Assembly (NCBI GenBank): GCA_035626155.1 | Contig: DASPOF010000070.1 | Coordinates: 12,619 to 76,618, forward strand | Length of the DNA: 64,000 nt | DNA from: Candidatus Binataceae bacterium | GTDB lineage: Bacteria; Desulfobacterota; Binatia; Binatales; Binataceae | Reading direction: 5' to 3' | Shown: one piece after another, positions 29,683 through 53,090 of the stretch | Position numbering within the stretch: position 1 is the first letter of the stretch | Layout of the letters: each line of letters begins with the position of its first letter | Notes under the pieces: generated by a model | Database searches by the model: none | What the model saw: only the letters and a program-made list of their open reading frames with translations | What the model was told of the DNA's origin: nothing | Program-made: the position numbers and the translations under genes

Positions 29683-29691
29683 CGGGAACCC

Positions 29692-30855: not shown

Positions 30856-30932
30856 AGACTAATCCTAGACGGATCGTGCGACCGCCGCCCAGTCCGAGCG
30901 GACTGCGTCCTGCCGCCGCCGCTTGACCGGCC

Positions 30933-31688
30933 TTATTCTGTCCTTCTGGTGAAAATCCGCAACAGCCGCCTCAGCGGGTCATAAAATTCGTCGGCGACGC
31001 GCTCCTTGAGCGGGATGATCGCATTGTCGGTGATGCAAATGTCCTCAGGGCAGACCGCGGTGCAGCACTTCGTGATGTTGCAATAGCCGACCCCGTGGTC
31101 GTCTTTGAGCGCCTTAAGCCGGTTATCGGAGTCGAGCGGATGCATCTCGAGCGCGGCCGTAAACACGAGGAGGCGCGGCCCGACGAATTTGTCGTGCAGA
31201 TTATGGTCGCGCAGCACGTGGCATACGTCCTGGCAGAGGAAACACTCGATGCACTTGCGGAATTCCTGAACGCGCTCGATGTCGTTCTGGGCCATCCGCC
31301 AGGTGCCGTCGGGGGCGTTTGGCTTGACGATCTTAAACGGCTTGATCGTGAGTTTCTTCTCGAAGTTCCACCGTACGTCGGTGACCAGGTCCTTGATGGC
31401 CGGAAAGCTGTGGATCGGCTGAAGCGTGATCGGCTGATCCAGCGGCAGGTCGCTCATCCGCGTCATGCACATCAGGCGCGGATGGCCATTGATCTCGGCC
31501 GAGCATGAGCCGCATTTGCCGGCCTTGCAGTTCCAGCGCACGGCGAGATCGTTGGCCTGTTCGGCCTGGATTCGGTGGACCACGTCGAGCACCACCATTC
31601 CTTCCTCGACGGTGGTGTCGTAATCGCGGAACTCGCCGCCCTTGTCGTCACCGCGCCAGATTCTGAATCGTGCCCGAGACGCGCTCAC
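30933..31688 (-). CDS. sdhB: Succinate dehydrogenase/fumarate reductase iron-sulfur subunit.
   Basis: Cys clusters CKAGKCGSC..., CIECFLCQDVC... and CCTAVCP.... Confidence 0.9.
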   Translation of the reverse strand: MSASRARFRIWRGDDKGGEFRDYDTTVEEGMVVLDVVHRIQAEQANDLAVRWNCKAGKCGSCSAEINGHPRLMCMTRMSDLPLDQPITLQPIHSFPAIKDLVTDVRWNFEKKLTIKPFKIVKPNAPDGTWRMAQNDIERVQEFRKCIECFLCQDVCHVLRDHNLHDKFVGPRLLVFTAALEMHPLDSDNRLKALKDDHGVGYCNITKCCTAVCPEDICITDNAIIPLKERVADEFYDPLRRLLRIFTRRTE

Positions 31689-33502: not shown

Positions 33503-34311
33503 CAGAGGAGCACCCTAAAGTCGTGGATTACGCCCATCGCCAGCATCCGGACGTAGAAATCGCAAAATGAGATCCATACCAGGCTGGTAAGAGCAAAATT
33601 CCGGTGCTGGCCGTTGAATACGGACGTGCAGGCCCAGCACTTGGCGCGCAGCGGGGCCTTTGAGAACCAGTTTAGATTGCCGCCCACTGCGCTTCTGAGC
33701 GAGTGACAACCCATCACGTAGCCCCAGAGCAACGTCACGTCCACCGCAAGCGCGATCGTCCCCAGCCCGATTCCGAACACCTCACGGCCCGTTGCCGGAT
33801 CGGTAAACCACATCGCCTCCCACACGTCGTAAGCGTGAGGGATCAGAAGCACGACGGCAAGGTACATGAAGTAGCGATGCGCGTTGTGAACCAGCAGCGG
33901 CCAGAAATTCTCGCCCCAGTAGCTGTGGCGCGGCTCGCCCACCGTGCAGCCCGGGGGATCGAAGAAGAACGCCTTGTAGTACGCGCCGCGAAAGTAATAG
34001 CAGGTGAGACGAAAGCCCGCCGGCGCCCATATGATGAGGAGCGCGGGAGAGAATGGCAGCAGCGCCGGCCAAAACGACGGGCGGCCGACTCCCAGCCAGG
34101 CCTTGGCCGAGCCGAACAGTTCCGGGGAGTAAAAGGGCGAAGTGTAATTGCCGAAACGGTAATTGTTACCCTGCAGCACCGCCCAGAGCGGATATACCGC
34201 CAGAAAGAAACCGAGGCCCGCGAAATAGGCGAGCCATTGCGCCCACCACAGGTCTCGCCGTGCGGTGCGGAAAAACGGCGTCTGGCTAATCTGAACTCCG
34301 GCTGCCGCCAT
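33502..34311 (-). CDS. sdhC: Succinate dehydrogenase/fumarate reductase cytochrome b membrane subunit (single large anchor, type-B-like).
   Basis: A polytopic 269-aa protein with conserved His residues. It sits at the head of sdhCAB as in B. subtilis and Wolinella. Confidence 0.7.
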   Translation of the reverse strand: MAAAGVQISQTPFFRTARRDLWWAQWLAYFAGLGFFLAVYPLWAVLQGNNYRFGNYTSPFYSPELFGSAKAWLGVGRPSFWPALLPFSPALLIIWAPAGFRLTCYYFRGAYYKAFFFDPPGCTVGEPRHSYWGENFWPLLVHNAHRYFMYLAVVLLIPHAYDVWEAMWFTDPATGREVFGIGLGTIALAVDVTLLWGYVMGCHSLRSAVGGNLNWFSKAPLRAKCWACTSVFNGQHRNFALTSLVWISFCDFYVRMLAMGVIHDFRVLL

Positions 34312-34365
34312 CGCTCACTCCTGAACTATCGACACTGGGCGCTGATGCGAAACGGACGGTGCCAC

Positions 34366-35310
34366 TCACGCGCCCGCCGCGATCACTTTGTCCATCGCAT
34401 CGACGAGTTCTTTCACGTGGGCAACCGAACTCGCGAACGCTTTCTTTTCTTCCGCGGTGAGCTGAATCTCCACCACGCGCTCGACGCCGCCCGCGCCGAT
34501 CACCACCGGCACCCCGGCGAACAGGCCGCGCACGTCATACTCGCCCTCGAGATAGGCGGCTGAGGGAAGCACTTCCTTGCGGTCGAGCATGTACGCCTCG
34601 GCCATCTTGTATGCGGCGGCGCCGGCGGCGTAATACGACGAGGTTTTCATCAGGTTCACTATCTCGCCGCCGCCATTGCGCGTGCGCTTCTCGATTTCAT
34701 CGAGACGCTTCGGATCGATCAGCCGCTCGATCGGAACGCCTCCGACCGTGGTGTAGCTGCGCACGGGGACCATGTCATCACCGTGGCCGCCGAGCACCAT
34801 CGCGTTCACGCTCTCGACCGAGACCCCGAGTTCGCTCGCGATAAAGGTGCGATAACGCGCCGAATCGAGCACGCCCGCCTGGCCGACGATGCGATGCTTG
34901 GGGAAGCCGGTCACGCGCTTGAGCTGCGTCACCATCGCGTCGAGCGGGTTGGTCACCGCGATCACGAACGAGTCGGGTGCATACTTTTTGATTGCCCCGC
35001 CGACATCGTTCATCACTTTGGCGTTGATCTTGAGCAGGTCGTCGCGGCTCATACCCGGACGGCGCGGCGAGCCCGAGGTGACCACGCAGCAATCGGCGCC
35101 GGTGATCTGGGCGATGTCGAGCGTGCCGGTCACGTTCACGTCCATGCCGAGGACGGGCGCGGATTCGAGCATGTCCAACGCCTTGCCCTGCGGGAGGCCG
35201 TCGATGATGTCGTAGAGGACGATGTCGCCGAGGGCGCGCAGGAAGCAAAGATGGGCGCAGGTTGCACCTACATTACCGGCCCCTATAAAGGCGATTTTTC
35301 TCCGTGCCAC
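34366..35310 (-). CDS. mdh: Malate dehydrogenase (LDH-like family).
   Basis: MARRKIAFIGAGNVGAT...VTNPLDAM...GGHGDDMVP.... Confidence 0.9.
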   Translation of the reverse strand: MARRKIAFIGAGNVGATCAHLCFLRALGDIVLYDIIDGLPQGKALDMLESAPVLGMDVNVTGTLDIAQITGADCCVVTSGSPRRPGMSRDDLLKINAKVMNDVGGAIKKYAPDSFVIAVTNPLDAMVTQLKRVTGFPKHRIVGQAGVLDSARYRTFIASELGVSVESVNAMVLGGHGDDMVPVRSYTTVGGVPIERLIDPKRLDEIEKRTRNGGGEIVNLMKTSSYYAAGAAAYKMAEAYMLDRKEVLPSAAYLEGEYDVRGLFAGVPVVIGAGGVERVVEIQLTAEEKKAFASSVAHVKELVDAMDKVIAAGA

Positions 35311-35407
35311 GCTTTGATTCGTCCCTTCCCCCAGATTTGATGTTGAAGATTATCTTATAAACCAATCTCCGCTAATCAGCAACACTTAACTGCCGAATAG
35401 CGTGCAT

Positions 35408-36277
35408 TCAGCGCTCCTTGAACGCCTGCGTGGCCCCGCCTTTGGGCTTCTCGCCGGGCCGGGCTTCGATCGCCGCCACGATCTCTTCCGTCCAGTCATC
35501 GATGATCTCGTTCGCGAAACTCCACTTCTCCGCCCCAGTCGTACTTAGCGGGAGCACTCTCGCGCTGCGCCGGTCGGAGAACATCCCGATAATCTCGCCC
35601 GTGGCGCCGTCGCGCAGCCGCGCCTCCATGCCTATCGATCCGCGTTGCGGCGCCTTGGACTCGGGCTCGGCGCTTGGCACGCGCGGCGTCGCGCTCGCCG
35701 CCGCGGGGACGCCAGCGCGGCTCGGCCAAAGTTCGACGATCGCGACTTCCGCGATGATCGTATTCGGGGTGAGCTGCTCGACGATTCGCAAGCGGCCCGA
35801 CTGATCGTTGAGGATCGCCTTGGTGAAAGATCGATTGATGTAGAGCGCGAGCTCGACCGCAGCTTCGTGCTGTTCCTCGGCAGCGGGCGGCGGCGGCGAT
35901 CCGGCCTCGATCGGCGTCAAATATGCGATCGTCACCGGAGCTATCCGCAGCCCTCGGTACCGGGCAAAGTCCGCATCCGGCTTCACCCAAGCCTTGTCGA
36001 ACGGATACACATCCTTTAGCGCGCTCATCCTCTCGGGCTCGGGAAGAAAACCTTCCGAGGCCGGCCTCGGCGCCGCCGCTGGCGGTTCGATCGCCTCGTT
36101 CGGCGCGGTTGCGCGCTCAGGAGTCACGGGGGTGACGGAGGCCGAGAGGCACCCCGATGCAATCGCGGCGAGCGGCACGAGCACGACCAACGCCATTGGG
36201 AATGTCAGTGCGAACGCTCGTACCCGAAGCCGCATCGAGGTCTTCCTCCCGACAAAGCGGGGGCCGGACTCGCGCAT
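35408..36277 (-). CDS. Hypothetical secreted protein or lipoprotein.
   Basis: A signal-like N-terminus ...LVVLVPLAAIASGC... and Pro/Ala-rich linkers, with no recognisable catalytic motif. It is inserted between icd and mdh. Confidence 0.45.
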   Translation of the reverse strand: MRESGPRFVGRKTSMRLRVRAFALTFPMALVVLVPLAAIASGCLSASVTPVTPERATAPNEAIEPPAAAPRPASEGFLPEPERMSALKDVYPFDKAWVKPDADFARYRGLRIAPVTIAYLTPIEAGSPPPPAAEEQHEAAVELALYINRSFTKAILNDQSGRLRIVEQLTPNTIIAEVAIVELWPSRAGVPAAASATPRVPSAEPESKAPQRGSIGMEARLRDGATGEIIGMFSDRRSARVLPLSTTGAEKWSFANEIIDDWTEEIVAAIEARPGEKPKGGATQAFKER

Positions 36278-36328
36278 CGCAATCGCGTGACCGGCCCCGC
36301 TCGGCGCAACCGTGCGAACTTATCGCGG

Positions 36329-37576
36329 TTACATGTTGTCGACGATCGCCTTTCCGAACTCAGAGCACTTGAGCAGCTTTGCTCCCGTCATCAGCCGCTC
36401 GAAGTCGTAGGTCACCGTCTTGTTGGCGATGGTCCGCTCCAGTCCGCGGATGATTCCATCGGCAACCTCCTGCCATCCCATGTGCTCGAACATCAGCACA
36501 CCGGAGAGGATGACGGAGCCGGGATTGACCTTGTCCTGGTCGGCGTACTTCGGAGCGGTGCCGTGCGTCGCCTCGAAAATCGCGTGACCGGTGACGTAGT
36601 TGATGTTGGCGCCGGGGGCGATTCCGATTCCGCCGACCTGCGCAGCGAGCGCGTCGGAGAGATAGTCGCCGTTGAGGTTCATCGTCGCGACGACGTCGAA
36701 CTCATCGGGGCGCGTGAGCACCTGCTGGAGCGTGATATCCGCAATATTGTCCTTGACCAGGAGCTGGCCGGCGGGCGGCTTTCCGCCGCAATCATCCCAG
36801 CCAATCGCGCGCCCCTTGAACTCACGGCGCACGAGTTCATAACCCCAGTCGCGGAACGCACCCTCGGTGTATTTCATGATGTTGCCCTTGTGGACGAGGG
36901 TGAGGCTCTTGCGCTTGTGCGAGATCGCGTAGTTGAGGGCGGCGCGAATCAGCCGCTCGGAGCCTTCGCGAGAGACGGGCTTGATGCCGAAGCCGGAGGT
37001 GTTCGGGAAGCGGATATTCTTCACGCCGAGCTCTTCCTGAAGGAACTTGCACAGCTTCTTCGCCTCGGGCGACTCGGCCTGCCACTCGATTCCCGCGTAA
37101 ATGTCTTCGGTGTTTTCGCGGAAGATGATGACGTCGAGTTTCTCGGGATGCTTCACGGGGCTCGGAACGCCCTGGAAATAGCGCACCGGACGCAGGCACA
37201 CATAGAGATCGAGCATCTGCCTGAGCGCCACGTTGAGCGATCGGATTCCACCGCCGATCGGAGTAGTGAGTGGACCCTTAATCCCGACCAGGAATTCGCG
37301 GAACGCCTCGACCGTCTCATCGAGCAGCCAGGTCTTGAACTTGTCGTACGACTTCTCGCCCGCGTACACCTCCATCCACGCGATCTTGCGCTTGCCGCCA
37401 TAGATCTTCTTGACCGCATTGTCGAAGACATATTGCGATGCGCGCCAAATGTCGCGGCCGGTGCCGTCGCCTTCGATGAACGGAAGAATCGGGTTATCGG
37501 GAACGTTCAGTTTTTGGTTTGCGCCGAGCGTAATCTTGGCGCCGTCAGTGGGAACCTTTACGTCCTTGTACGCCAT
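36329..37576 (-). CDS. icd: Isocitrate dehydrogenase (NADP).
   Basis: ...[16 protein letters not shown]...[19 protein letters not shown].... 415 aa. Confidence 0.95.
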
Positions 37577-37818: not shown

Positions 37819-39015
37819 ATGGATTTCAGCTACACGCCGGAACAAGAGAAGTTTCGCGCCGAGCTGCGCGCATGGCTCGAGAAAAATTCCGCCGAGGTCT
37901 TCGGCCGCGGACGCCCGGTTATCGGGTCATCCGCCGAGGGCGGCGACGGTTGGTCCCAGATGGTCGAGTATCACCGCCGCCTGAATGCAGCCGGCTACGT
38001 TGCGCTGCACTGGCCCAAGGAATGGGGTGGCAGCGGCGCAGGGATAATCGAACAATCGATCTATCAGGATGAAGTCCTGCGCCTGGGCCTCCCGCTCTAC
38101 GGATGCAATCAGCTAGCGCTCGATCGCATCGGCCCGACGATCGCGCTGATGGGCACCGAACAGCAGCGCAAGCGATTCCTGCCGAAAATGCTCACCGCCG
38201 AGGAAATCTGGTGCCAGGGTTACTCGGAACCCAATGCCGGCTCGGATCTGGCGGGGCTTCAGACGCGCGCCGTGCTCGAGGGCGACTCCTTCATCGTCAA
38301 CGGACAGAAGGTCTGGACCAGCCTCGCGCACCGCGCGGATTGGCAGGTTCTGCTGGTCCGAACCGATCCGCAGGCGCCCAAGCACAAGGGCATCTCGTAT
38401 CTGCTCGTCGACATGAAAAGCCCCGGCATTACCGTTCGTCCGCTTGTCCAGATTACCGGAGACGCGGGATTCAACGAGGTCTTCTACGAGAACGTCCGAG
38501 TGCCCAAGGAAAACCTGGTCGGCGAACTCAACCAGGGTTGGCAGGTGTCGATCGCGACGCTGATGTACGAGCGCGTCTCGGGTGGCACGCGCCATCCGGT
38601 CGAGCGAACCATCGGCGAGCTGACCGAACTCGTGAAGAAGGTCGATTTCGAGGGAGTCCCCGCATCGACGCATCCCTACGTCCGCCAGAAGGTCGCGCAG
38701 TTCGCCGCCGAGGCGCGCTGTCTGCGGCTCAGCCGGTATCGGTCGCTCACGTCGCAGCTCAAGGGCCAGGTACCGGGACCGGAAAGCTCGTATGGCAAAC
38801 TCTTTGCCACGGATCTCAACCTGCGCGTCGCGATGTTCGCCGACGAATTGCTCGGACCTTACGGCGGTCTCGAACACGGCTCGCTCGGGGCGATTGATGG
38901 AGGCCGCTGGGTAACCCGCACGCTAGGTGCGCGCGGCCTCACGATAGCCGCGGGATCCAACGAGATCCAGCACAACATCATCGGCGAGCGAGTCCTCAAG
39001 CTGCCCAAAGGCTGA
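37819..39015 (+). CDS. Acyl-CoA dehydrogenase family protein.
   Basis: ...QGYSEPNAGSDLAGLQTRA...GQKVWTS... and a C-terminal ...GGTNEIQ...-like motif. Confidence 0.8.
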   Translation: MDFSYTPEQEKFRAELRAWLEKNSAEVFGRGRPVIGSSAEGGDGWSQMVEYHRRLNAAGYVALHWPKEWGGSGAGIIEQSIYQDEVLRLGLPLYGCNQLALDRIGPTIALMGTEQQRKRFLPKMLTAEEIWCQGYSEPNAGSDLAGLQTRAVLEGDSFIVNGQKVWTSLAHRADWQVLLVRTDPQAPKHKGISYLLVDMKSPGITVRPLVQITGDAGFNEVFYENVRVPKENLVGELNQGWQVSIATLMYERVSGGTRHPVERTIGELTELVKKVDFEGVPASTHPYVRQKVAQFAAEARCLRLSRYRSLTSQLKGQVPGPESSYGKLFATDLNLRVAMFADELLGPYGGLEHGSLGAIDGGRWVTRTLGARGLTIAAGSNEIQHNIIGERVLKLPKG

Positions 39016-39021
39016 GCGCCG

Positions 39022-40623
39022 GTGCGAGGGTTTTCCGCGCTGGCGGGACGCGCGCGCTCGATCGCGGCCATCCGGCCCCGTCATCTCGTCGAGTTCTGCG
39101 CAAAGCCGGCGGTGATCCTGACCGCGATCACCGTGTTCGCGGCCGTGCGCCGCCTGCATCTCCTGGGCAGCCAGAGCTTTTGGAGCGATGAGGCTGAGAC
39201 CGTCACGCTGGCGACGATGCCGTGGCCGGCGATGAAGCACGTCGTGCTGACGCGCGAGACCAACATGGGTCTCTACTTCCTTTTCATGCGTGCATGGACG
39301 GCGCTCGGAACCACTGAGTCGATTTTCCGGATGCCCTCTGCCATCGCCTCAATCGCGACCATCCCCCTGCTCTATCTGGCCGGGCGGCGCCTGTTCGGAT
39401 CTTCCATCGCACTGGCCGCCGCACTTCTCTTCGCTGCAAATCCGATGGGCATCGCCTACGCGCAGGAAAGCCGCAGCTACAGCATCGAGGTGATGCTGGT
39501 CGCCGCCTCATGGCTGTTTTTTCTGCGAACGATCGACCGCAGCTCGGCCGGCAATCTCGCCGGATGGGTTCTGGCGACCACGCTGGCAGTCTATGCGCAT
39601 TCGCTCGCCTTCCTTGCGATTCCGGCGCAGTTGGTCCCGTTACTCATTGTGAGACGGCGCAACGCACCGTGGTTCCAACTGCTCGCGGGCGCGGCGCTCG
39701 TCGGATTACTCGTGCTGCCGCTCGCCATCCTGGCTGCCCGAAATGACGCGGGACAGCTCGACTGGATCTCTCCGCTGAATTGGTCCTATGCAACCCACGA
39801 ACTAGTCAAAATGACGGGCGTGATGGTGTTCGACAGCTCAGGCAATGCGTTCGGGACCTTATGCGGATTTGCGGTGCTGCTCGCGATAGCGGAACTCGTC
39901 ACGGGGTTCAAACGATCGCGCGAGGATGCTGCACCTTACTTGTTTGCGGCCTGCGCGGTCCTGGTACCATTCGCGCTGTCGGCGGCGGTATCGTTCTTCA
40001 AACCGCTGCTGCTCGCCAGGTACCTGATTTTCTCCCTGCCGATGGTGTGCCTGCTCGCCGCGGCTGGCTGCTGGATGGTACGCAGTGCGGTTGGGCGCGC
40101 CGGCCTGCTCGCCGCGATCGTGGCCGCCGGCCTGTGGCATGACACGGTGCTTACGACCACTTACCGAAGAGAGGACTGGCGCGCAGTGGCGCTGGCTATG
40201 CGGCTTGGAGGGGTGCGCGGCGATGCGGTCGTGGTTTATTACGCTCCCAACCGATGGTCACTGGACTACTACCTTCGGCGGATGCACATTGCGCCGGGAT
40301 TTTTCGACTTCATCTACCCCGACTGGGACGCCAACCTGGAAATCGACGGCCATTTCACGACCGATCGCGATGCGAAGGCGATACTGGCGGCCGAGCTGCT
40401 GAAAGGAATCAGCTCGGCGGCCGACAACGGTCGGCGCGTGTGGTTCATATACGACAGGAAGACCTGGGATGTTTTCCCGCCCAACGCATCTGTGAAAACG
40501 GTATACTCGCTTCTGCGCAGACGCTATCGAGTCCTTGCCCTAAGGAGCGTGCACGGAGTCGGCGTCCTTCTGTTCAGTTGGCCGCAGCCCCCAAGGCCGT
40601 ATCGCCCGCCGCCAAGCCGATAG
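39022..40623 (+). CDS. GT-C fold glycosyltransferase, ArnT/PMT (GT39/GT83)-like polytopic membrane protein.
   Basis: About 11 TM helices. The first-loop acidic motif ...SQSFWSDEAETVTLA... is like the ArnT/PMT DE motif, and there is a hydrophilic C-terminal domain. Confidence 0.65.
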   Translation: MRGFSALAGRARSIAAIRPRHLVEFCAKPAVILTAITVFAAVRRLHLLGSQSFWSDEAETVTLATMPWPAMKHVVLTRETNMGLYFLFMRAWTALGTTESIFRMPSAIASIATIPLLYLAGRRLFGSSIALAAALLFAANPMGIAYAQESRSYSIEVMLVAASWLFFLRTIDRSSAGNLAGWVLATTLAVYAHSLAFLAIPAQLVPLLIVRRRNAPWFQLLAGAALVGLLVLPLAILAARNDAGQLDWISPLNWSYATHELVKMTGVMVFDSSGNAFGTLCGFAVLLAIAELVTGFKRSREDAAPYLFAACAVLVPFALSAAVSFFKPLLLARYLIFSLPMVCLLAAAGCWMVRSAVGRAGLLAAIVAAGLWHDTVLTTTYRREDWRAVALAMRLGGVRGDAVVVYYAPNRWSLDYYLRRMHIAPGFFDFIYPDWDANLEIDGHFTTDRDAKAILAAELLKGISSAADNGRRVWFIYDRKTWDVFPPNASVKTVYSLLRRRYRVLALRSVHGVGVLLFSWPQPPRPYRPPPSR

Positions 40624-45755: not shown

Positions 45756-45896
45756 CGTTTCGACCGGGCGCGCTTACGGCGCGCTCGTGAGGACATTATC
45801 ACAAACCGGTACCCGCGGGGGAACATCTGGGCGGCCGCGACATTTGCGATTGCGGGCGGCGCAATACTGGTCGAATCCTCGATAGCGTCTGATATT

Positions 45897-46553
45897 ATGA
45901 CGGGTTGGACTCCAATGATTTTCAAGGTCGTAAACTGCTCGGCCATCGCCGCGATGGCGTTTGTGGCGGCGGGATGCTTCGACCCGCCAATCAGCCAGCC
46001 GCCCCCGGAGGCGAAAACCGTGACCGTCATCGGGCTGCCCTATGACCTCGCGTGGGAAGCGGTTGGCAATGTGATCAGCCAGGACGGCCTGCATGTCCAG
46101 GTGCAGGATCCGGTCAACGGGATCATCGAGGCGCAGGGCAAGGGGTTTTCGCTCCAGGACGCCGACTGCGGAAGAATCCACAGCGTGCTGGGCGCCTTTG
46201 CCGCCCAGCCGGACGCCGAGGCATCGGCGGTGTACAACTTTCGGCTTAAGACCGTGGGCAACGAGGCGAGCTCGGTCGCGGTGCGAGCCACCTTCAATTC
46301 TCCGCTGAGAGTGCCGCTCCGTCCCGTGCGCGACGTCGAATGCGTCTCGCGCGGGACGCAGGAGTCGCGGCTCCTGCGCGAGGTCCTCGCCCAGGCAAGC
46401 CAGACGCATCCGCCGCAGCGCGTCAAGCCGGAGCAGGCAGCGCTGCCGCCGAAACCCGCATCTCCTCCGCTCGAATCCGAATCGCCGCCGCTCACATCGG
46501 GGCGCCCTACCCTTCTCAAACCCGACTTTCTGCTGCGGCCGGGTCCCGAATAG
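45897..46553 (+). CDS. Hypothetical lipoprotein.
   Basis: A lipobox ...AAMAFVAAGCFD.... It is the C-terminal part of the long 44421..46553 ORF. The upstream 490 codons of that ORF are antisense to ruvC/yebC and are rejected. Confidence 0.5.
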   Translation: MTGWTPMIFKVVNCSAIAAMAFVAAGCFDPPISQPPPEAKTVTVIGLPYDLAWEAVGNVISQDGLHVQVQDPVNGIIEAQGKGFSLQDADCGRIHSVLGAFAAQPDAEASAVYNFRLKTVGNEASSVAVRATFNSPLRVPLRPVRDVECVSRGTQESRLLREVLAQASQTHPPQRVKPEQAALPPKPASPPLESESPPLTSGRPTLLKPDFLLRPGPE

Positions 46554-46625: not shown

Positions 46626-48602
46626 TTAGGGTCGATCCGGAATCAGCGCGGCGGCGGGAACGATTTCCTGATCCCTGCCGGGCAGCCGCCAGTATAGGTG
46701 GATCGAAGAATCACCGCCGAGATTGCGCTCGCCGACTTCGATACGATGAATGCCCGCGCGGACGAAGACGGTCGCCTCGCCGTGCTCGCGCGTAACTGGC
46801 CCGGGGTCGGCTATCAGCGTCTGACCGTCGAGCTTGAGCCATCCGCAATCGTCCGCATCGACGACGAAATTGTACTGCCCGCTTACGGGCGCGATGATCC
46901 GGCCTGACCACACCGCGACCGACGGCCACGGCATCGCACCCATCTCAACGATATTGTCCAGGTTCACCTCGCGGTCGATTCGCACGATCTGCGGCGGTAT
47001 CTCGCCCGGAACATCGCCGGCGAAATAACGGCCCAGCAATCCCTGGTGCCGGCGAAGCTGAAGCGGCTGGGCGATTCGGCCATCGAGCGGCGCGAGGAAC
47101 ATGATCGCGATGGCGGCGCAAATCGCCGCCGGGCCCACACGGCTTGCGGAGCCGACGGCGAGGAGCCCGAGCGAATCGGCCAGCTCGAGCGCGCCGATCA
47201 TCCAGAAGATCCCGAGCGGCCAGAGCTGGAACGCTCCCGCCAGCCCGATCAGCTTGCCAAGATTGAATGCAACCGAGTCCCGGGTAATCATCCCGCCCCC
47301 GAAATAAGCATCGCGGTTGGTCGCAAAATCGCCTCGGAAGAATTGCTGCGCTGCAAAATCGCGCACCGGGTTTTCGTACTCGTACGGAAAGTGCGGGTTG
47401 GTCGAGGTCGCCATCAGCATCATGAACACCGAGAGCGCGGCCAGCGCGCCCATCAGCCAGTCCCACGATTTCGGCACAAACGCCAGCGTGAGGACCATGA
47501 ACGGGACAGCCGCAACGATCTGACGCGGGCCGGTCGCGGTCCCGCCGCCCCACGACACGATCGATTCGCCATAAGAGGCGTTGAACAGGATCATCGCGGC
47601 GAACGCGAAAACCGTCACGGCGGATTCCGCGCGCCATCGCCGATCGGCCAGGAAAAATCCCGCGCCGGGAATCGCGAGCAGCAGCACCGGGTTGCAGAAG
47701 AAAAGACCGCGCTGCGGATCGGCCAGGATATTGCAAAGATTGCCGATCTTCGGGTAGGTGAGGCCGACGAATCCCTTGGCCTGCTCGGGGAACTGCGTGT
47801 TGCCCGGCAGCTTGAACGCCTGATAGCTGAAAAAGAGCGGGCTCCCGAATGCGCCCCAGTTGTAGCCGAGCAGGAGCATCGCGCCGATTCCCGCTCCCGC
47901 CGAAAAAGCGGCCAGAGCAATGAGATTCCGCCTGAGCCTGAACAGCGCGAAGATGCCGATCGCGGCCGCAACCAGGAAGGCCGGATAGTCGTTCGTTACC
48001 GCAAGCCCCGCAAGGAAACCTGCGACGAAGCCGCGCCACGGACCGGGATCGTTGGCGAATGTCGCAACCAAATAGAAGGCGATGAATGCGAGCGCACCGG
48101 CGAACGGCTCCCCCGTCATCTCGGTTGAGTACGGGAACATGATCGTGGCGAACGCGAGGATCAGCGCGAGGCCCGCGCTTCGCCCATCCGAGGCGCCCAG
48201 GAATCGCGCGAACCGGTACATCACGATGGCGAGAATCGATGCGAGCAGCCCCGTGGTCAGGACGATCGTGAGGTAGGTAACGAGCGCCCAGTAGAGCGGC
48301 TCGTTGCGAGCAAGCAGCGGCGACAGCCAAAGCCGTATCGCCGCCCACGGCACCAGCGCGACCAGCGACGTGCCGGGCGCTTTCACCGAATAGATGTGTC
48401 CGCTGAAATTGATGATGTCCGCGGTATTGAAGCCGCAGAAGTCGTCGATCCAGAGCGCGTGCTTCTCCAGCACGGACCGCATCAGGTCGAACCGCGCGGC
48501 AGTGCTCTGGTCGGCGCCCTGATAAAAATAGGCGTAGCTGACGAACGGAATAAGGAAGAGCGCGGTTTCGATTCGCCGCGTGCGATCGTCGGCCGCGCTC
48601 AT
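46626..48602 (-). CDS. Polytopic membrane protein (GT-C-like) with a C-terminal PA14 carbohydrate-binding domain.
   Basis: More than 12 hydrophobic helices, then ...VSGQYNFVVDADDCGWLKLDGQTLIAD...IHRIEV...IHLYWRLPGRD..., which has the PA14-like signature. The start is trimmed to MSAADD, which gives a 4-nt overlap with the upstream gene. Confidence 0.6.
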   Translation of the reverse strand: MSAADDRTRRIETALFLIPFVSYAYFYQGADQSTAARFDLMRSVLEKHALWIDDFCGFNTADIINFSGHIYSVKAPGTSLVALVPWAAIRLWLSPLLARNEPLYWALVTYLTIVLTTGLLASILAIVMYRFARFLGASDGRSAGLALILAFATIMFPYSTEMTGEPFAGALAFIAFYLVATFANDPGPWRGFVAGFLAGLAVTNDYPAFLVAAAIGIFALFRLRRNLIALAAFSAGAGIGAMLLLGYNWGAFGSPLFFSYQAFKLPGNTQFPEQAKGFVGLTYPKIGNLCNILADPQRGLFFCNPVLLLAIPGAGFFLADRRWRAESAVTVFAFAAMILFNASYGESIVSWGGGTATGPRQIVAAVPFMVLTLAFVPKSWDWLMGALAALSVFMMLMATSTNPHFPYEYENPVRDFAAQQFFRGDFATNRDAYFGGGMITRDSVAFNLGKLIGLAGAFQLWPLGIFWMIGALELADSLGLLAVGSASRVGPAAICAAIAIMFLAPLDGRIAQPLQLRRHQGLLGRYFAGDVPGEIPPQIVRIDREVNLDNIVEMGAMPWPSVAVWSGRIIAPVSGQYNFVVDADDCGWLKLDGQTLIADPGPVTREHGEATVFVRAGIHRIEVGERNLGGDSSIHLYWRLPGRDQEIVPAAALIPDRP

Positions 48603-49360
48603 AACGATTTCCGCCGCGCCGCGCGGTTCGATCGTGCGGCGGGCACGGGCTCCTGGCGGCCGTACATCCGCCATCCGTAGAACGCGACCGCTCCAAGCAC
48701 CGCGAACGCCGCCACCAGCGTGATCGGCGAGCCGACCGGGCCGCCCTGCGATTCGTTTCGGATTGCGGCCAGATCGTAGGTGGGAGTCGCGCCGGCGGGC
48801 GGTCCTTCAATCTTCACCAGCTTCGCGTTGCGGAAAAACGCACGTCCCTTGTTGAGGCTTCCGAATCCGCCGACCCTGAGCGCCACATCGACGTCGGCCC
48901 CGTCTGCGCCAACCTTCATATAGAGGCCGACCGTCTGCCAGCCGGTCGTGCCCCGGATGTCGGGCGACATGATGCCGTCGTCCATGATCGAGATGGTCGC
49001 GCCGGTTTCATTCGCACCGACATTATCGGTTCGGATTTCCGCGCTCGCGTAGTACCATCCCGCCGAGAGCGAGAGCGACTCCATCCAGCGCGCATCGTCG
49101 GGCTGGAGATTCTCCACTTCGAGTTGGCCCGCTCCGCCCTCGGCCGGATGGGTCCAATCGTAGTGCCACGCCTTTGGATCGTTGATCCACGCTTCGGTGC
49201 GCCAGTTGTCCGGCTGGGGACCGGAGCCTTTCGATAGATCTCCGTTGAGGAGCAGATTGTTTTCCGCGGGTGCGCGGGATGGCGCGGCCAGGACGAGCGT
49301 CCCGATCGCCGCGAGTGCCGCGAGCAGGCAGCCGAGATGAAGTTTTCGTCCCCGGCTCAT
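48599..49360 (-). CDS. Secreted protein with a galactose-binding/CBM-like domain and a C-terminal TM anchor.
   Basis: A signal peptide ...LAALAAIGTLVLAAPSRA, a beta-rich middle and a C-terminal ...ITLVAAFAVLGAVAFYGW... anchor. Confidence 0.5.
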   Translation of the reverse strand: MSRGRKLHLGCLLAALAAIGTLVLAAPSRAPAENNLLLNGDLSKGSGPQPDNWRTEAWINDPKAWHYDWTHPAEGGAGQLEVENLQPDDARWMESLSLSAGWYYASAEIRTDNVGANETGATISIMDDGIMSPDIRGTTGWQTVGLYMKVGADGADVDVALRVGGFGSLNKGRAFFRNAKLVKIEGPPAGATPTYDLAAIRNESQGGPVGSPITLVAAFAVLGAVAFYGWRMYGRQEPVPAARSNRAARRKSL

Positions 49361-49364
49361 CGCG

Positions 49365-52277
49365 TCAAATCCAATTCCTCAGGCCCGGCCCCTCCAGCCA
49401 CATTCGCGCGTAATAGCCGGCGCGATCGATCGGTATCGCCGTCCATACCGGAAAGAAATACACGAACAGCACCACCGCCGTCGCGAGAAAAACCACGCTC
49501 ACGAACCTCCCCGGGTACGGCGTCTCTCCGAGTATCACCATGTAGGACAGGAACATCGCCATGAACGCGATTGCGCCCCACGTCGTGCCCAATCCCAGGA
49601 TGAACACGGGCGTCATCGTGAGCAGCAGCGCGATGTGCTCCCACGGCTCCGCGGTCTCATCCCAGCATTGCGCCAGGACGCCGGCGAGCGCGATGAAGGC
49701 CAGGTAGGTCGACGCCATGTAGTGGTAGAGAAAGAGCGTCCGCCCGATCCAGATCCAGATCCCAAGGTATCCGATGTAGCCCAGGACGAGGAACGAACGG
49801 ACCAGATTGGGCCGCTCGACCGCCTGCACCGCGGCGATTGTGATCGCCGTCAGCGCTCCCCAGCACAGAAGCGGGTTCGACCCAAACCAGATCGTCGCGA
49901 CATTGCCGGTCTTCGGAAAGTTCTGCCAATACGCGACCGCCCGCAGCATCAGCGGCCAGCTCCACCACGGCGATGCGTACGGATGGGTCGCCGTCGAGAC
50001 GCTTTTCTCGTAGCCGACGATGTCCTGGTAATACTTGAACAGGTCCTCGATTCCGCCCCACCAGCCGAGCCAGTAGTGCGGCAGAAACACCGCGATGTAC
50101 GCGATCGAGGCGACCGATCCCGTAAGCGCTACTGCGCCGATGATTCGGATGTCGCGCAGCCGGCCGCCCGCGCCCGACCGATAGAGCACGTAAACGAGGA
50201 ACCCCATCACGAGGAGGAACGTCACCGCGGGAATGTACAGCTTGCTCGCGACGCACAGCCCAAGCGCGATACCGAGCCACGGCAGGATTTTCCGCCGTTC
50301 CAGCAAGCCGGGGGTCTCGACGAATCGGAAAAATAGCAGATACGAAACCGCGGCGAGCGTGATGTACACGATGTCGATCACCGCGATGCGCGAATCGACC
50401 AGGAACACCCCGTCGAACGCGATGAATGCCGCGGCCAGAGACGCCGCAAGGCGCGAATGAAGCATCCGCCGCACCAGTAGATACGTGACGCCGATCAGCG
50501 CGGTCCCGATGGCCGCGTTGGCGATGCGCCAGCTCCACGGATGATCCCCGAAAAGCCGGATGCCCAGCGCGATCAGCAGCTTGGCGAGCGGCGGATGCGG
50601 ATCGAGGAACGGCTCGGAATGCAGATAGTGGCGCGCCTGCCCGACGAAGTGCACCTCATCGAAAACAATCTCGGGAGGAGTGTTCAGATGCCAGAAGCGG
50701 ATGATGCCGCCGAGTGCAAGCATCGCGGAAATCACGATTGTGTCGGCGCGGATCCATCCGAGCGGCTCCGGGCGCTCCTCAGGCTCGGGCGCCTCGGACG
50801 GCTGGCGGGTCAGGCGTTGCAAGATCGCGTTCAGCCGCGGGGAGTGCACCTCCGCGCCTTCCAGGCTGACCGCGCCATAGATCGCCGCCGCAGCGAAAAT
50901 CGCAACGTTCAGCGCCGATGCGGCCATCGCAAGTCCGTCGCGCGCGTCGAAGAACACGATCGTCTTGAGCGTGTGCAATACGTAGGCGAGGTTGAACAGG
51001 CAGGTGAGGCTCAGCGCGCCGAACACCGCGAGCATCTCGATCGACTCCAGCGCGAGCGGGATCGCGAACACGATCGCCGGATACAGGTAGCGCTCGTGCA
51101 TCCGCGGAGCGAGCAGGAAGAAGCCGAAAATCGTGATGAAGGCGGCGTACAGCAGCGTCTTCGCCGTCCGCTTACGCCAAAGAATCCACGCAACAAACCC
51201 GTACAGCGGAACGAGCAGGCTCATCCCCAGCCCGAAGTAGGAGATTCCCGCGACCGTCCCCGAATCCGGCTGCCGAAGCCCGCCTATCAGCGCCATCAGG
51301 TTGAAAGCGTTGACCGAGGTCTCGTGATAGTAAGCCGCGGTTGAGGTGTAGAGTTCGAGAATCCAGTTCCAGGGATGGCCGACTTGAAACGGTGCAATCC
51401 CGATTACGAACACCGATATCCCCACCACCGCGCAGCGCGCCCAGCACCGCACGTCCGTCTCGAGCATCGTCCACCACGCCAGCACCGGCGCCAGCATCAG
51501 CCCCTGCGGCTTGACCAGCACCGAGATCGCCGCCATCGCCCAGCACAGTTCGTATTGCGATGCGAGCAGCGCGATAACGCTGAGCAACATCGTGAACGTA
51601 AGCACCGAGTCGCTCTGGCCCCACACCACCGTGTCGAACAACAATACCGGGTTCAGCGCGATCATCAGCATCGCGCCCAGCGCGATCGCGGTGCGCCGGT
51701 CGCGCCGGACCAACGAATAGACCAGCGCGGCGAGGAAGAAGTCGGCGACGATCGCGGGACTCTCGGCGATCAGCCGCTGAGTGTCGCCGGTCGCATGAAG
51801 CAGGTTGGTGAGAACGCCGGCGACCCAGAGCGCGTAGAGGTAACCGGGCGGGTAATCGAGAAAATAGCCCGCCTGGTACGTATGCGCCGGGCCCAGATTC
51901 GCGATTTGGAGCGCCCACGCCTGGTAGCTGCCCACGTCAGGCCCGAAGCCGGGAAAGAACGACAGGGCCGCGGTCTTCACGATCGCGAGCGCGCCCAGCG
52001 TGACCGCGGCGGTCTCGAGACCGGACTCGGGGTCGCTCGCGATCGGTTTGAGCGCGCAAGCAAATGCGTAGCCGACAATCGAGATCAGGATGACGCCGGC
52101 CAGGATGCCCGCGAGTTTGCCCGATCCCGCCGGCGCCTGCGCGCCCGGCTCCGCGGCGAGCGATGCCGCAGCGAGCAGCGCGACGCCGAGCATCGTCACA
52201 ACGCGGCGCGGACCGCGCGGCGCGAGCGTCTTCCACCGCCGCATCAGGGCGAGACCTTCCGGGTTATCAAGCCGCAC
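49365..52277 (-). CDS. 970-aa tandem GT-C glycosyltransferase fusion. The N-terminal half is DUF2029/GT87-like (a DYPP motif). The C-terminal half is PMT/GT39-like (an FDEVHF motif).
   Basis: N-module: ...GYFLDYPPGYLYALW...HERYLYP.... C-module: ...FDEVHFVGQARHYL... plus many TM helices. More than 20 predicted TM segments in total. Confidence 0.7.
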   Translation of the reverse strand: MRLDNPEGLALMRRWKTLAPRGPRRVVTMLGVALLAAASLAAEPGAQAPAGSGKLAGILAGVILISIVGYAFACALKPIASDPESGLETAAVTLGALAIVKTAALSFFPGFGPDVGSYQAWALQIANLGPAHTYQAGYFLDYPPGYLYALWVAGVLTNLLHATGDTQRLIAESPAIVADFFLAALVYSLVRRDRRTAIALGAMLMIALNPVLLFDTVVWGQSDSVLTFTMLLSVIALLASQYELCWAMAAISVLVKPQGLMLAPVLAWWTMLETDVRCWARCAVVGISVFVIGIAPFQVGHPWNWILELYTSTAAYYHETSVNAFNLMALIGGLRQPDSGTVAGISYFGLGMSLLVPLYGFVAWILWRKRTAKTLLYAAFITIFGFFLLAPRMHERYLYPAIVFAIPLALESIEMLAVFGALSLTCLFNLAYVLHTLKTIVFFDARDGLAMAASALNVAIFAAAAIYGAVSLEGAEVHSPRLNAILQRLTRQPSEAPEPEERPEPLGWIRADTIVISAMLALGGIIRFWHLNTPPEIVFDEVHFVGQARHYLHSEPFLDPHPPLAKLLIALGIRLFGDHPWSWRIANAAIGTALIGVTYLLVRRMLHSRLAASLAAAFIAFDGVFLVDSRIAVIDIVYITLAAVSYLLFFRFVETPGLLERRKILPWLGIALGLCVASKLYIPAVTFLLVMGFLVYVLYRSGAGGRLRDIRIIGAVALTGSVASIAYIAVFLPHYWLGWWGGIEDLFKYYQDIVGYEKSVSTATHPYASPWWSWPLMLRAVAYWQNFPKTGNVATIWFGSNPLLCWGALTAITIAAVQAVERPNLVRSFLVLGYIGYLGIWIWIGRTLFLYHYMASTYLAFIALAGVLAQCWDETAEPWEHIALLLTMTPVFILGLGTTWGAIAFMAMFLSYMVILGETPYPGRFVSVVFLATAVVLFVYFFPVWTAIPIDRAGYYARMWLEGPGLRNWI

Positions 52278-52427
52278 CAGTCACGCTTCGAGCGCGTCCC
52301 CATCGGAAACTGACTCGCTAACATAGCGAACTGGAACCGCGCGATGAACACCACGCTGCGCCGAACATGGCTGGCGCGGGGCGGCGGCGCGGGACTATCA
52401 TTCCTGAACCGCAAGGAGGCCTCGCGC

Positions 52428-53090
52428 ATGGATCTGATTCATACGGCCTACGAACCGGCAGGCAGCGGCCCGCATCCGGCGATCAGCGCGTTCCACGGAT
52501 GGGGCGCAAACGCGCTCGACCTGCTCGGCCTGGCGCCGTATATCGCGGAGGGGCGATGCATCGTCGTCTGCCCGCAAGGCCCGATCGAGGTGGCTATCGG
52601 TCCCACGCGCGGCTTTGGCTGGTATCAGATTCGCACCGGCGGTGCGCACGATCCCGCGGTTCTCGAGGCTACCAGCCGCGCCGGGGCCGCTTTCATCGAC
52701 GCCGCCATGGAGCGTTATCCAATCGACCCGCGCAAGCTGATTCTGCTCGGCTTCAGCCAGGGCGGCTCGATGGCGTACCGGCTGGCGATGACGAATCCGG
52801 CGAGGTTCGCCGCGATGGTTGCGATTTCGACCTGGTTTGCGCCCGAGCTGAAGGAGCTTGCGACTGATCGCGATGCGCTCACGCGGCTTCCCACGCTCAT
52901 CCAGCACGGACGCGCCGACGAGATGGTCGAGATCGCGCGCGCCCGCGCCTCGGTGGACCATCTTCGCGAACTTAAGATTCCGGTCACGTTCCGCGAGTAC
53001 GATTGCGGCCACGAGATCACCGCCGAGAGCCTCGATGACCTGTCGCAATTCCTGATGCAGAAGGTCGTCCAGCCGATTCTGACCGTATGA
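52428..53090 (+). CDS. Phospholipase/carboxylesterase-family alpha/beta hydrolase.
   Basis: ...GFSQGGSMAY... (a GxSxG nucleophile) and ...IQHGRADEMV...CGHEI.... The start is trimmed to MDLIHTAYEP. Confidence 0.7.
   Translation: MDLIHTAYEPAGSGPHPAISAFHGWGANALDLLGLAPYIAEGRCIVVCPQGPIEVAIGPTRGFGWYQIRTGGAHDPAVLEATSRAGAAFIDAAMERYPIDPRKLILLGFSQGGSMAYRLAMTNPARFAAMVAISTWFAPELKELATDRDALTRLPTLIQHGRADEMVEIARARASVDHLRELKIPVTFREYDCGHEITAESLDDLSQFLMQKVVQPILTV

What the first reader, a model, noticed from the sequence alone, without database searches (positions are those of the whole stretch)
46626..49360. A polytopic membrane protein with a periplasmic PA14 domain plus an anchored CBM-like protein, co-oriented with the GT-C fusion
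Three consecutive minus-strand genes, 49365..52277, 48599..49360 and 46626..48602, overlap at start and stop codons by 4 nt and by about 4 nt. This implies one operon. The downstream 682-aa protein has more than 12 TM helices and ends in a PA14 domain, a fold that binds carbohydrate. The middle protein is a secreted beta-rich module tethered by a C-terminal TM helix. Together with the fused GT-C this looks like a dedicated surface-glycan assembly or modification machine. The enzymes carry their own carbohydrate-recognition domains.
Basis: inference. Interest (0 to 1): 0.5.

Follow-up and report, generated by a model that had tools for sequence, protein, structure and literature searches.

The report
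Lectin-equipped GT-C glycosyltransferase operon in Binataceae
Three tightly packed genes of an uncultured soil bacterium (family Binataceae) encode three membrane glycosyltransferase modules, one ending in a PA14 sugar-binding domain and partnered with a membrane-anchored carbohydrate-binding-like protein; this is probably a machine that decorates secreted proteins or envelope glycans, and it exposes a large uncharacterised enzyme family.

Summary
The three minus-strand genes are A 49365..52277, B 48599..49360 and C 46626..48602. They form an operon bounded by a divergent esterase gene and a convergent lipoprotein gene.

- B and C overlap by ATGA, but A and B are separated by a 4-nt spacer, not an overlap.
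- The likely C protein is 658 aa. The 682 aa figure is only the maximal ORF.

A fuses a GT87/ALG3-like module to a GT39 PMT module.

The order A-B-C is kept in all 70 related Binataceae loci that hold all four modules. Paralogues fuse B and C into one polypeptide. Distant C relatives fuse an ArnC/DPMS-like GT2.

The C membrane domain has no Pfam model and no solved relative by sequence, yet it matches about 6,400 protein clusters, many with PA14.

Most likely function: periplasmic, polyprenyl-phosphate-sugar-dependent glycosylation, probably protein O-mannosylation plus elongation. Donor and acceptor are inferred, not shown. I rate it a new variant of a known kind, of moderate interest.

The parts
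49365..52277 (-). Gene A, 970 aa, a fusion of two GT-C modules. Residues ~1-485 (50823..52277) are GT87/ALG3/ALG6-like. Residues ~508-970 (49368..50756) are a GT39 PMT module with the FDEVHF loop-1 motif and the PMT_4TMC region. The stop codon is at 49365..49367.
   Evidence: Pfam PMT 85 bits, PMT_2 51.6 and PMT_4TMC 54.5 in the C-terminal half. PDB sequence hits are to Pmt1, Pmt2 and Pmt4. In the N-terminal half, 10 of 16 orthologues hit GT87 (best 7e-7), 12 of 16 hit ALG3 and 8 of 16 hit Alg6_Alg8. A is a single ORF in 61 of 70 related loci.
49361..49364 (-). 4-nt spacer (cgcg) between the A stop and the B start. It is not an overlap.
   Evidence: Sequence read directly.
48599..49360 (-). 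Gene B, 253 aa. Signal peptide at residues 1-32 (49265..49360). CBM-fold beta-sandwich at residues ~35-190 (48791..49258). TM anchor at residues ~207-232 (48665..48742). Basic cytoplasmic tail follows.
47085..48602 (-). Gene C, membrane domain (residues 1-506). 13 TM helices, N-terminus cytoplasmic, GT-C fold. Belongs to an uncurated family.
46629..47045 (-). Gene C, C-terminal PA14 domain (residues 520-658), extracytoplasmic. The stop codon is at 46626..46628.
45897..46553 (+). Convergent putative lipoprotein gene (lipobox VAAGC) that closes the operon downstream. The minus-strand ORF 45774..46409 is its antisense shadow.
   Evidence: Frame-wise GC3 and translations.
52344..53090 (+). Divergent carboxylesterase-type alpha/beta hydrolase gene that bounds the operon upstream.
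   Evidence: Pfam Abhydrolase_2 at 1.8e-22. It occupies the same position in the related loci.

Best explanation
A-B-C is a three-gene operon for glycosylation on the outer face of the cytoplasmic membrane. It is built from three GT-C modules that take sugars from polyprenyl-phosphate carriers.

Most likely sequence of events:
1. The GT39 PMT module of A puts the first mannose on Ser/Thr of exported proteins.
2. The GT87/ALG3-like module fused to it adds the next sugar, as PimE does after Pmt in actinobacteria.
3. C, a GT-C of an uncharacterised family, extends or branches the glycan.

C works as one unit with B. The PA14 domain of C and the CBM-fold domain of B both sit in the periplasm next to the catalytic loops. 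They bind the growing glycan (acceptor or product) and so set specificity, processivity or length.

Shown here: the domain and fold identities, the topology, the operon structure, the conservation, and the B-C and GT2-C fusions.

Inferred: the donor sugar, the acceptor (protein rather than lipoglycan or polysaccharide), the order of the steps, and sugar binding by PA14 and B.
For: - C has a GT-C fold. It has 13 TM helices, and all conserved loops face out. The short outward loops carry no K/R in any of 32 homologues and are at least 97% conserved.
- Acidic and basic residues in the first periplasmic loop are invariant across a family that shares only 27-38% identity: D62, K74, R37, R42 and R360.
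- Donor class: at least three cluster representatives (P0279, P0420, P0421) fuse a GT2 to a C-like GT-C plus PA14. For P0279 that GT2 was tested and is closest to ArnC and Dol-P-Man synthase.
- B and C act as a unit. The ATGA overlap is kept in 59 of 67 loci. Four full-length cluster representatives (905-945 aa; a fifth, P0245, is cut short and its PA14 lies in the next ORF) carry B-like, C membrane and PA14 parts in one polypeptide, with a compatible topology. One of them comes from an NCBI Binataceae MAG whose contig names (k141) suggest a short-read assembly.
- A is a GT39 module with the DE motif plus a GT87/ALG3-like module.
- In actinobacteria a GT39 Pmt initiates and the GT87 enzyme PimE elongates O-mannose, both using polyprenyl-P-Man (PMC12757957).
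- The order A-B-C is conserved in all 70 loci that hold all four modules, drawn from 79 related loci in species-representative genomes.
- PA14 and CBM folds are confirmed.
Against: - No activity, donor or acceptor is shown.
- No polyprenyl-phosphate sugar synthase or flippase lies in the operon or its immediate flanks.
- The GT87/ALG3 assignment of the N-terminal half of A rests on weak HMM hits, none found for the window protein itself beyond E~0.1.
- The PMT module scores far below the NCBIfam equivalog cut-off, 73 against 800.
- B-C fusion paralogues stand alone without an A-like neighbour, so C need not act on A's product.
- The top GT-C fold hits include lipid A, arabinan and LLO enzymes as well as PMTs, so the fold does not pick the acceptor.
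Confidence: 0.6

Rival explanations
1. The same kind of machine, but the acceptor is not protein. The three GT-C modules would build or decorate a lipid-linked or envelope glycan (a lipoglycan, LPS core or lipid A, or an exopolysaccharide), in the way Emb, Aft and PimE build mycobacterial arabinan and mannan. PA14 and B would act as acceptor-polysaccharide binding modules.
For: The best structural matches of C include ArnT (lipid A), AftB, AftD and AftA (arabinan), PimE and the ALG enzymes. B's fold relatives are polysaccharide-binding CBMs for hyaluronan, glucan, xylan and galactan. The closest PA14 sequences are the polysaccharide-sensing RsgI domains. B-C fusion paralogues occur without any PMT neighbour.
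Against: The only module with a firm family assignment is GT39. To my knowledge all characterised GT39 members are protein O-mannosyltransferases. The operon sits among housekeeping genes, not in a polysaccharide or LPS locus.
Confidence: 0.3
2. C and B are not enzymes. They would be a glycan sensor, adhesin or scaffold: the GT-C-fold membrane domain is non-catalytic (like PIG-U/GAB1 in GPI transamidase), and PA14 plus CBM report or bind extracellular polysaccharide, as PA14 does in RsgI anti-sigma factors.
Against: There is no signalling or anti-sigma domain and no regulator in the operon. Periplasmic loops are extremely conserved, with family-wide invariant Asp, Lys and Arg residues typical of active GT-C enzymes. 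Relatives are fused to a polyprenyl-phosphate glycosyltransferase-type GT2.
Confidence: 0.05
3. The adjacency of A to B-C is a conserved genomic habit without functional coupling. A is an O-mannosylation enzyme, and B-C is an unrelated GT-C unit that happens to share a transcript.
For: Fused B-C paralogues occur elsewhere without A. Distant C homologues have varied neighbours.
Against: The order A-B-C is kept in 70 of 70 loci despite 54-76% protein divergence and a variable region just downstream. The A/B junction is an overlap or a gap of at most ~15 nt in nearly all loci. Distant C homologues also tend to sit next to other PMT or PMT_2 GT-C genes.
Confidence: 0.1

Closest known systems
ArnT (GT83, undecaprenyl-phosphate-L-Ara4N:lipid A transferase; PDB 5f15)
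Actinobacterial protein O-mannosylation: Pmt (GT39) plus PimE (GT87)
   Same: Gene A combines a GT39 PMT module and a GT87/ALG3-like module. These are the two activities that initiate and elongate O-mannose with polyprenyl-P-Man in mycobacteria (PMC12757957).
   Different: Here the two modules are fused in one 970-aa polypeptide. They are followed by a third GT-C with PA14 and by a CBM-fold protein. The host is an uncultured non-actinobacterial lineage (Binataceae). The activity is untested, and the GT87 assignment is weak.
Mycobacterial EmbA/B/C and AftD (GT53 and related GT-C enzymes with periplasmic carbohydrate-binding modules)
   Different: The lectin modules here are a PA14 domain and a separately encoded (or N-terminally fused) CBM-fold domain with its own TM anchor. 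C is much smaller (658 aa). No sequence relation.
PA14 domains of RsgI anti-sigma factors (6qdi, 6qe7) and PA14 lectins of the adhesins MpIBP, Lap, Flo5 and Epa
   Same: Sequence and fold membership in PA14. The DD motif is conserved.
   Different: The domain is attached to a GT-C enzyme rather than to a sensor, adhesin, glycosidase or toxin. The ligand is unknown.
CBM70, CBM4, CBM16, CBM22 and CBM61 beta-sandwich carbohydrate-binding modules
   Different: No HMM match to any curated CBM family. B is a free-standing type-I membrane protein, not a module of a glycoside hydrolase or lyase.
Eukaryotic PMT1/PMT2 with a luminal MIR domain
   Same: A protein O-mannosyltransferase system in which a lectin-like beta-rich domain sits on the extracytoplasmic side of a GT-C core (from my own knowledge). 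Pmt1, Pmt2 and Pmt4 are sequence and fold hits.
   Different: The MIR domain is a beta-trefoil inserted in a loop of the same enzyme. Here the lectin-type domains are a PA14 and a CBM fold, placed on a different GT-C and on a separate protein.

Membership tests
PA14 domain (Pfam PF07691) | Profile HMM score at or above the curated gathering threshold | tested here: met
   36.6 bits against a cut-off of 24, E 4.9e-9. All listed homologues carry precomputed PF07691.
PA14 domain (Pfam PF07691) | PA14 beta-barrel fold superposable on solved PA14 domains | tested here: met
PA14 domain (Pfam PF07691) | Carbohydrate binding, Ca2+-dependent through the DD motif in the lectin-type members | not testable with these tools
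   D584-D585 are invariant in 32 homologues and align with the DD of 6qdi and 6qe7. Binding itself is untested.
GT-C glycosyltransferase superfamily (protein C) | Multi-pass membrane core with the GT-C fold | tested here: met
GT-C glycosyltransferase superfamily (protein C) | N-terminus cytoplasmic, and a first extracytoplasmic loop carrying a conserved acidic catalytic residue | tested here: met
   Topology. D62 is conserved in 46 of 46 sequences across the wider family. D31 and D39 are invariant within Binataceae. A catalytic role is inferred.
GT-C glycosyltransferase superfamily (protein C) | Uses a polyprenyl-phosphate-linked sugar donor | not testable with these tools
   Indirect support only: ArnC/DPMS-like GT2 fused to C-like GT-C plus PA14 in P0279, and Pfam GT2 in P0420 and P0421.
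PMT_2 / ArnT-like (Pfam PF13231; CAZy GT83-type) for protein C | Profile HMM score at or above the gathering threshold | tested here: not met
   25.5 bits against a cut-off of 26.1 for the window protein. Some orthologues carry a precomputed PF13231 hit. Distant family members have none. I do not file C as a member.
NCBIfam NF047440, LA_3751/LA_3752 putative glycosyltransferase | Score at or above the curated cut-off | tested here: not met
   48.6 bits against a cut-off of 200.
GT39 protein O-mannosyltransferase (C-terminal half of A) | PMT and PMT_4TMC profile matches above threshold, and the loop-1 Asp-Glu motif | tested here: met
   PMT 85.1 against 22.7 and PMT_4TMC 54.5 against 32.4. FDEVHF is present in the translation. 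Pmt1, Pmt2 and Pmt4 are PDB sequence hits. The NCBIfam equivalog cut-off is not reached, 73 against 800.
GT87 / ALG3-type GT-C (N-terminal half of A) | Significant profile match to GT87, ALG3 or Alg6_Alg8 | tested here: inconclusive
   The window protein gives only E 0.09 to Alg6_Alg8. Among 16 orthologues, 10 hit GT87 (best 7.2e-7), 12 hit ALG3 (2.6e-5) and 8 hit Alg6_Alg8. No PDB sequence hit. No structure model was made.
Carbohydrate-binding module (protein B) | Sequence membership in a curated CBM family | tested here: not met
   No Pfam or NCBIfam hit. Only weak DUF5013 hits in 17 of 32 homologues, best E 0.003. phmmer to CBM35 2w3j gives E 0.053.
Carbohydrate-binding module (protein B) | Beta-sandwich (jelly-roll) CBM fold | tested here: met
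Carbohydrate-binding module (protein B) | Binds a carbohydrate ligand | not testable with these tools
   Invariant Trp, Tyr, Asp and Arg residues are compatible with a binding cleft but do not prove one.

The most novel reading that the evidence does not exclude
C and B define a new GT-C glycosyltransferase family. It has roughly 6,400 clusters at 50% identity, no Pfam model and no solved relative by sequence. Its members carry built-in lectin modules (PA14, and in Binataceae also an anchored or fused CBM-fold domain) that read the growing glycan. Together with the GT87-like/GT39 fusion A, they would give Binataceae an extended protein O-mannosyl-glycan pathway. That would be a complete initiation-plus-elongation O-mannosylation machine outside Actinobacteria and eukaryotes, encoded as one core operon.
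Probability: 0.3. Interest if true: 0.65.

Novelty: new variant of a known kind. Interest (0 to 1): 0.45.

Why it matters
GT-C enzymes build mycobacterial cell walls, modify lipid A and glycosylate proteins. New families are rare, and each has opened a pathway.

This operon contributes four things:
1. It points to a large GT-C family, uncurated in Pfam and without a solved relative by sequence, whose members often carry a PA14 lectin domain.
2. Its gene fusions predict both the partner (B) and the donor class (polyprenyl-phosphate sugar). These are concrete, testable hypotheses.
3. It suggests that PMT-type protein O-mannosylation with elongation exists in an abundant, uncultured soil lineage.
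4. It offers a compact model for how lectin modules steer membrane glycosyltransferases.

If sugar binding were confirmed, the PA14 and CBM-fold domains would also be new glycan-binding reagents.

Tried and rejected
- **Downstream ORF.** I first took the minus-strand ORF 45774..46409 as a fourth operon gene. Its translation is Arg-rich and implausible, and the plus-strand frame has the gene-like GC3 and a lipobox. It is an antisense shadow.
- **B-C read-through in L020 and L051.** The B tail changes frame about 20 codons before its stop, so I rejected these as probable frameshift errors. Real B-C fusions were found separately.
- **Shared origin of A's N-terminal half and C's membrane domain.** Profile-profile comparison gives no relation, probability 0.3%.
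- **Sequence searches against solved structures.** B gives only E 0.053. The profiles of A's N-terminal half and of C's membrane domain give nothing.
- **B-like proteins next to distant C homologues.** None found. The 247-aa neighbour in L080 is an ankyrin-repeat lipoprotein.
- **Exact-sequence look-up of C.** Not on record.
- **Taxon names from cluster look-up of distant homologues.** None held.
- **Foldseek against AFDB50 for B.** The library was unavailable.
- **Promoter and terminator scans.** No more sites than in shuffled sequence.
- **Literature.** No paper in the searchable library combines PA14 with GT-C, or treats Binatota glycosyltransferases in this sense.
- **Simple sliding-window hydropathy.** It gave overlapping TM calls and a wrong parity. 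I replaced it with an assignment based on the model's helices and the positive-inside rule.
Full report
**Source and setting**

The window has about 65% G+C. The best protein matches of all three genes come from MAGs labelled Candidatus Binataceae, Candidatus Binatus or 'delta proteobacterium'.

The three genes sit among housekeeping genes.
- Upstream, and divergent: a carboxylesterase-type hydrolase and MazG.
- Downstream: YebC, RuvC, RuvA and RuvB.
- Further away: TCA-cycle genes.

**Checking the observation**

The ORFs 49365..52277 (A, 970 aa), 48599..49360 (B, 253 aa) and 46626..48674 (maximal ORF of C, 682 aa) are all on the minus strand. Their GC3 is gene-like, 0.77-0.84.

The C start that fits the homologues is the ATG at 48602. 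Homologues are 657-675 aa with aligned N-termini. That start overlaps the B stop as ATGA and gives a 658-aa protein.

A and B do not overlap in this window. The junction reads TGA-cgcg-ATG, a 4-nt spacer.

Across related loci, the B/C 4-nt overlap is present in 59 of 67. At the A/B junction a 4-nt overlap occurs in 32 loci and a 4-nt gap in 9.

**Operon limits**

The minus-strand ORF 45774..46409 translates to an implausible Arg-rich sequence. The plus-strand frame over the same DNA has GC3 0.77 and encodes a protein with a lipobox (VAAGC) that ends at 46553.

So a convergent lipoprotein gene closes the unit downstream, and a divergent gene bounds it upstream. The transcription unit is exactly A-B-C. 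The promoter and terminator consensus scans gave no more sites than shuffled sequence.

**Protein C**

Pfam finds PA14 (36.6 bits against a cut-off of 24) and PMT_2 just below threshold (25.5 against 26.1). NCBIfam gives only a sub-threshold hit to a Leptospira putative glycosyltransferase family.

An AlphaFold2 model built on 32 homologues has pLDDT 80 and pTM 0.81. It shows a helical membrane domain followed by a beta-rich domain at residues 520-658.

- The membrane part matches GT-C enzymes: ArnT 18.0, ALG12 17.4, AftB 16.8, Pmt4 16.4, STT3B 15.8, AglB 15.7, ALG9 15.6 and AftD 15.2.

The simple hydropathy pass gave an inconsistent helix parity. I re-assigned the helices from the model and the positive-inside rule. 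The result is 13 TM helices with the N-terminus inside.
- All short inward loops carry K/R.
- The short outward loops carry no K/R in any of the 32 homologues and are 97-100% conserved.
- All long conserved loops face out.
- PA14 follows TM13 on the outside.

This is the ArnT/PglB-type layout, as I recall those structures.

**The wider family of C**

A profile of the membrane domain alone, searched against 1.84 billion cluster representatives, finds 6,446 clusters at E<=1e-3 and 996 at E<=1e-30.

Of the best 149, 64 carry a PA14-like C-terminus by a local HMM. Most of the rest are proteins of about 480-550 aa without it.

These relatives share 27-38% identity with C. They keep F26, R37, R42, D62, K74, P76, G299, P305, G358, R360, P367 and N447.

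Their membrane domains match no Pfam model, and the profile hits no PDB sequence. The few taxon names seen outside Binataceae are Sumerlaeia and BRC1.

Three cluster representatives (P0279, P0420, P0421) put a GT2 domain in front of the C-like GT-C plus PA14. For P0279, that GT2 is closest to ArnC and to Dol-P-Man synthase. These are the enzymes that load polyprenyl phosphate with a sugar. This is Rosetta-stone evidence for the donor class.

Neighbours of distant homologues are often further GT-C genes.
- L080 has DUF2298, PMT_2 and PMT_2 genes next to the C homologue.
- L082 has a PMT_2 gene beside it.
- L084 has a 787-aa protein with PMT, PMT_2 and PA14 domains, plus a GT2-methyltransferase gene.

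**Protein B**

No Pfam or NCBIfam family matches B. Across 32 homologues the only recurrent signal is weak DUF5013, best E 0.003.

The alignment shows a signal peptide, a conserved domain of about 155 aa rich in invariant Trp, Tyr, Asp and Arg, a linker, one TM helix and a basic tail.

'CBM-like' is thus true at fold level only.

B-like sequences were found only with Binataceae-type proteins.

**B and C as one unit**

Five cluster representatives carry a B-like domain and a C membrane domain in one polypeptide: P0242, P0436, P0445, P0449 and the truncated P0245.
- The four full-length ones (905-945 aa) also carry PA14.
- In P0245's contig, the PA14 part lies in the next, overlapping ORF.
- P0449 comes from an NCBI Binataceae MAG whose contig names (k141) suggest a short-read assembly. 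It stands without an A-like neighbour.
- P0242 also stands without an A-like neighbour.

The fusion is topologically consistent. B's cytoplasmic tail leads into C's cytoplasmic N-terminus, so both lectin-type domains flank the catalytic face in the periplasm.

The apparent B-C read-through in L020 and L051 is different. It looks like a frameshift error.

**Protein A**

The C-terminal half is a GT39 PMT module. Pfam gives PMT 85 bits, PMT_4TMC 54.5 and PMT_2 51.6. The FDEVHF motif is present, and there are PDB sequence hits to Pmt1, Pmt2 and Pmt4.

The N-terminal half has no significant hit by itself. Among 16 orthologues, however, 10 hit GT87 (best 7e-7), 12 hit ALG3 and 8 hit Alg6_Alg8. These are all lipid-phosphate-sugar-dependent GT-C families. 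It shows no relation to C's membrane domain.

A is one ORF in 61 of 70 loci. The split cases are mostly in MFD-labelled assemblies and look like frameshifts.

**Synteny**

A scan of one genome per species returned 79 loci. Almost all are labelled Binataceae, Binatus, 'delta proteobacterium' or similar; two short contigs are labelled Candidatus Acidiferrales.

Wherever the contig reaches far enough, the order is esterase (divergent), A N-terminal half, A C-terminal half, B, C. A stretch of variable length follows, and then the lipoprotein, YebC and RuvCAB. All four modules are present in 70 loci.

**Mechanism**

*Shown:*
- three GT-C modules;
- two lectin-type folds on the periplasmic side;
- tight translational packing;
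- family-wide conservation;
- physical fusion of B with C in paralogues;
- fusion of a polyprenyl-phosphate glycosyltransferase-type GT2 with C-like proteins elsewhere.

*Inferred, as the most likely course:*
1. The PMT module starts O-mannosylation of exported proteins.
2. The fused GT87/ALG3-like module adds the next sugar, as PimE does after Pmt in actinobacteria (PMC12757957).
3. The B-C unit extends or branches the glycan. PA14 and the CBM fold hold the acceptor or product.

From my own knowledge, periplasmic CBMs are thought to play that holding role in EmbC and AftD, and the MIR domain is proposed to do so in eukaryotic PMTs.

The main rival is that the acceptor is a lipoglycan, polysaccharide or LPS rather than protein. 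The fold hits of C and the CBM relatives of B are equally compatible with that. The stand-alone B-C fusions show that C does not need A next to it.

A non-catalytic sensor role is unlikely, given the invariant periplasmic Asp, Lys and Arg residues and the GT2 fusions.

**Novelty**

GT-C enzymes with periplasmic carbohydrate-binding domains are known. PA14 is known on glycosidases, adhesins, toxins, sensors and some GT-A transferases (my own knowledge).

I found no paper in the searchable library that links PA14 with GT-C enzymes or describes this family. The membrane domain has no curated model and no solved relative by sequence.

I therefore rate the finding a new variant of a known kind: real, conserved and hypothesis-rich, but not categorically new. 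Its biochemical function is still inferred.

Noticed in passing
window 39022..40623 (+): A further GT-C gene about 6 kb away. The 533-aa protein has a significant PMT_2 match (43.8 bits), and the gene lies directly after an acyl-CoA dehydrogenase gene (37819..39015). This genome region therefore holds at least four GT-C modules.
   Followed up: no
window 45774..46409 (-) versus 45897..46553 (+): The 211-aa minus-strand ORF is an antisense shadow. The real gene is a plus-strand putative lipoprotein (lipobox VAAGC, Pro-rich C-terminus) that converges on gene C. It is conserved next to yebC in relatives at only 27-50% identity.
   Followed up: partly
related loci L001-L079, between gene C and the lipoprotein/yebC genes: The stretch downstream of C varies from about 0.2 kb (as in this window) to more than 7 kb (for example L019, L026, L032, L077), while both flanks stay fixed. 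This looks like an insertion hot spot. I did not examine its content.
   Followed up: no
L088 8001..10802 (P0449); L086 7001..9838 (P0242); also P0436, P0445, P0245: Paralogues of 905-945 aa fuse the B-like CBM-fold domain, its TM helix, the C-like GT-C core and PA14 in one polypeptide. P0242 and P0449 stand without an A-like neighbour.
   Followed up: yes
L083 916..3885 (P0279); also P0420, P0421: Proteins of about 990-1000 aa fuse an ArnC/DPMS-like GT2 to a C-like GT-C and PA14. Donor synthesis and transfer would then sit in one protein.
   Followed up: partly
L084 2785..5148 (-): A 787-aa protein with Pfam PMT, PMT_2 and PA14 lies next to a distant C homologue and a GT2-methyltransferase fusion gene. 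PA14 is thus also appended to bona fide GT39-type enzymes in other lineages.
   Followed up: no
L020 ~9200..10150 and L051 ~9236..10150: B reads through into C because the B tail shifts frame about 20 codons before its stop. These are probably indel errors in these MFD-labelled assemblies rather than real fusions. Nine loci also show a split gene A, probably for the same reason.
   Followed up: partly
gene A orthologues in L011-L073 (Binatus-type genomes): In many loci the open frame that holds gene A is about 1,060-1,090 codons, against 970 aa in this window (these are stop-to-stop lengths, so upper bounds). Where the extra length lies was not examined.
   Followed up: no
window 28795..37576 (-): A TCA-cycle block: succinyl-CoA ligase alpha and beta, succinate dehydrogenase Fe-S and flavoprotein subunits, malate dehydrogenase and isocitrate dehydrogenase. 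It is interrupted by a DUF3313 protein (35408..36277) and an unassigned 269-aa ORF (33502..34311).
   Followed up: no
literature (bioRxiv 10.1101/2025.10.15.682550): A preprint tests a Binatia ALG1 homologue (BiALG1), among other bacterial ALG1 homologues, for mannosyltransferase activity by yeast alg1 complementation and in vitro assay. This hints that the class carries several eukaryote-like glycosylation enzymes.
   Followed up: no
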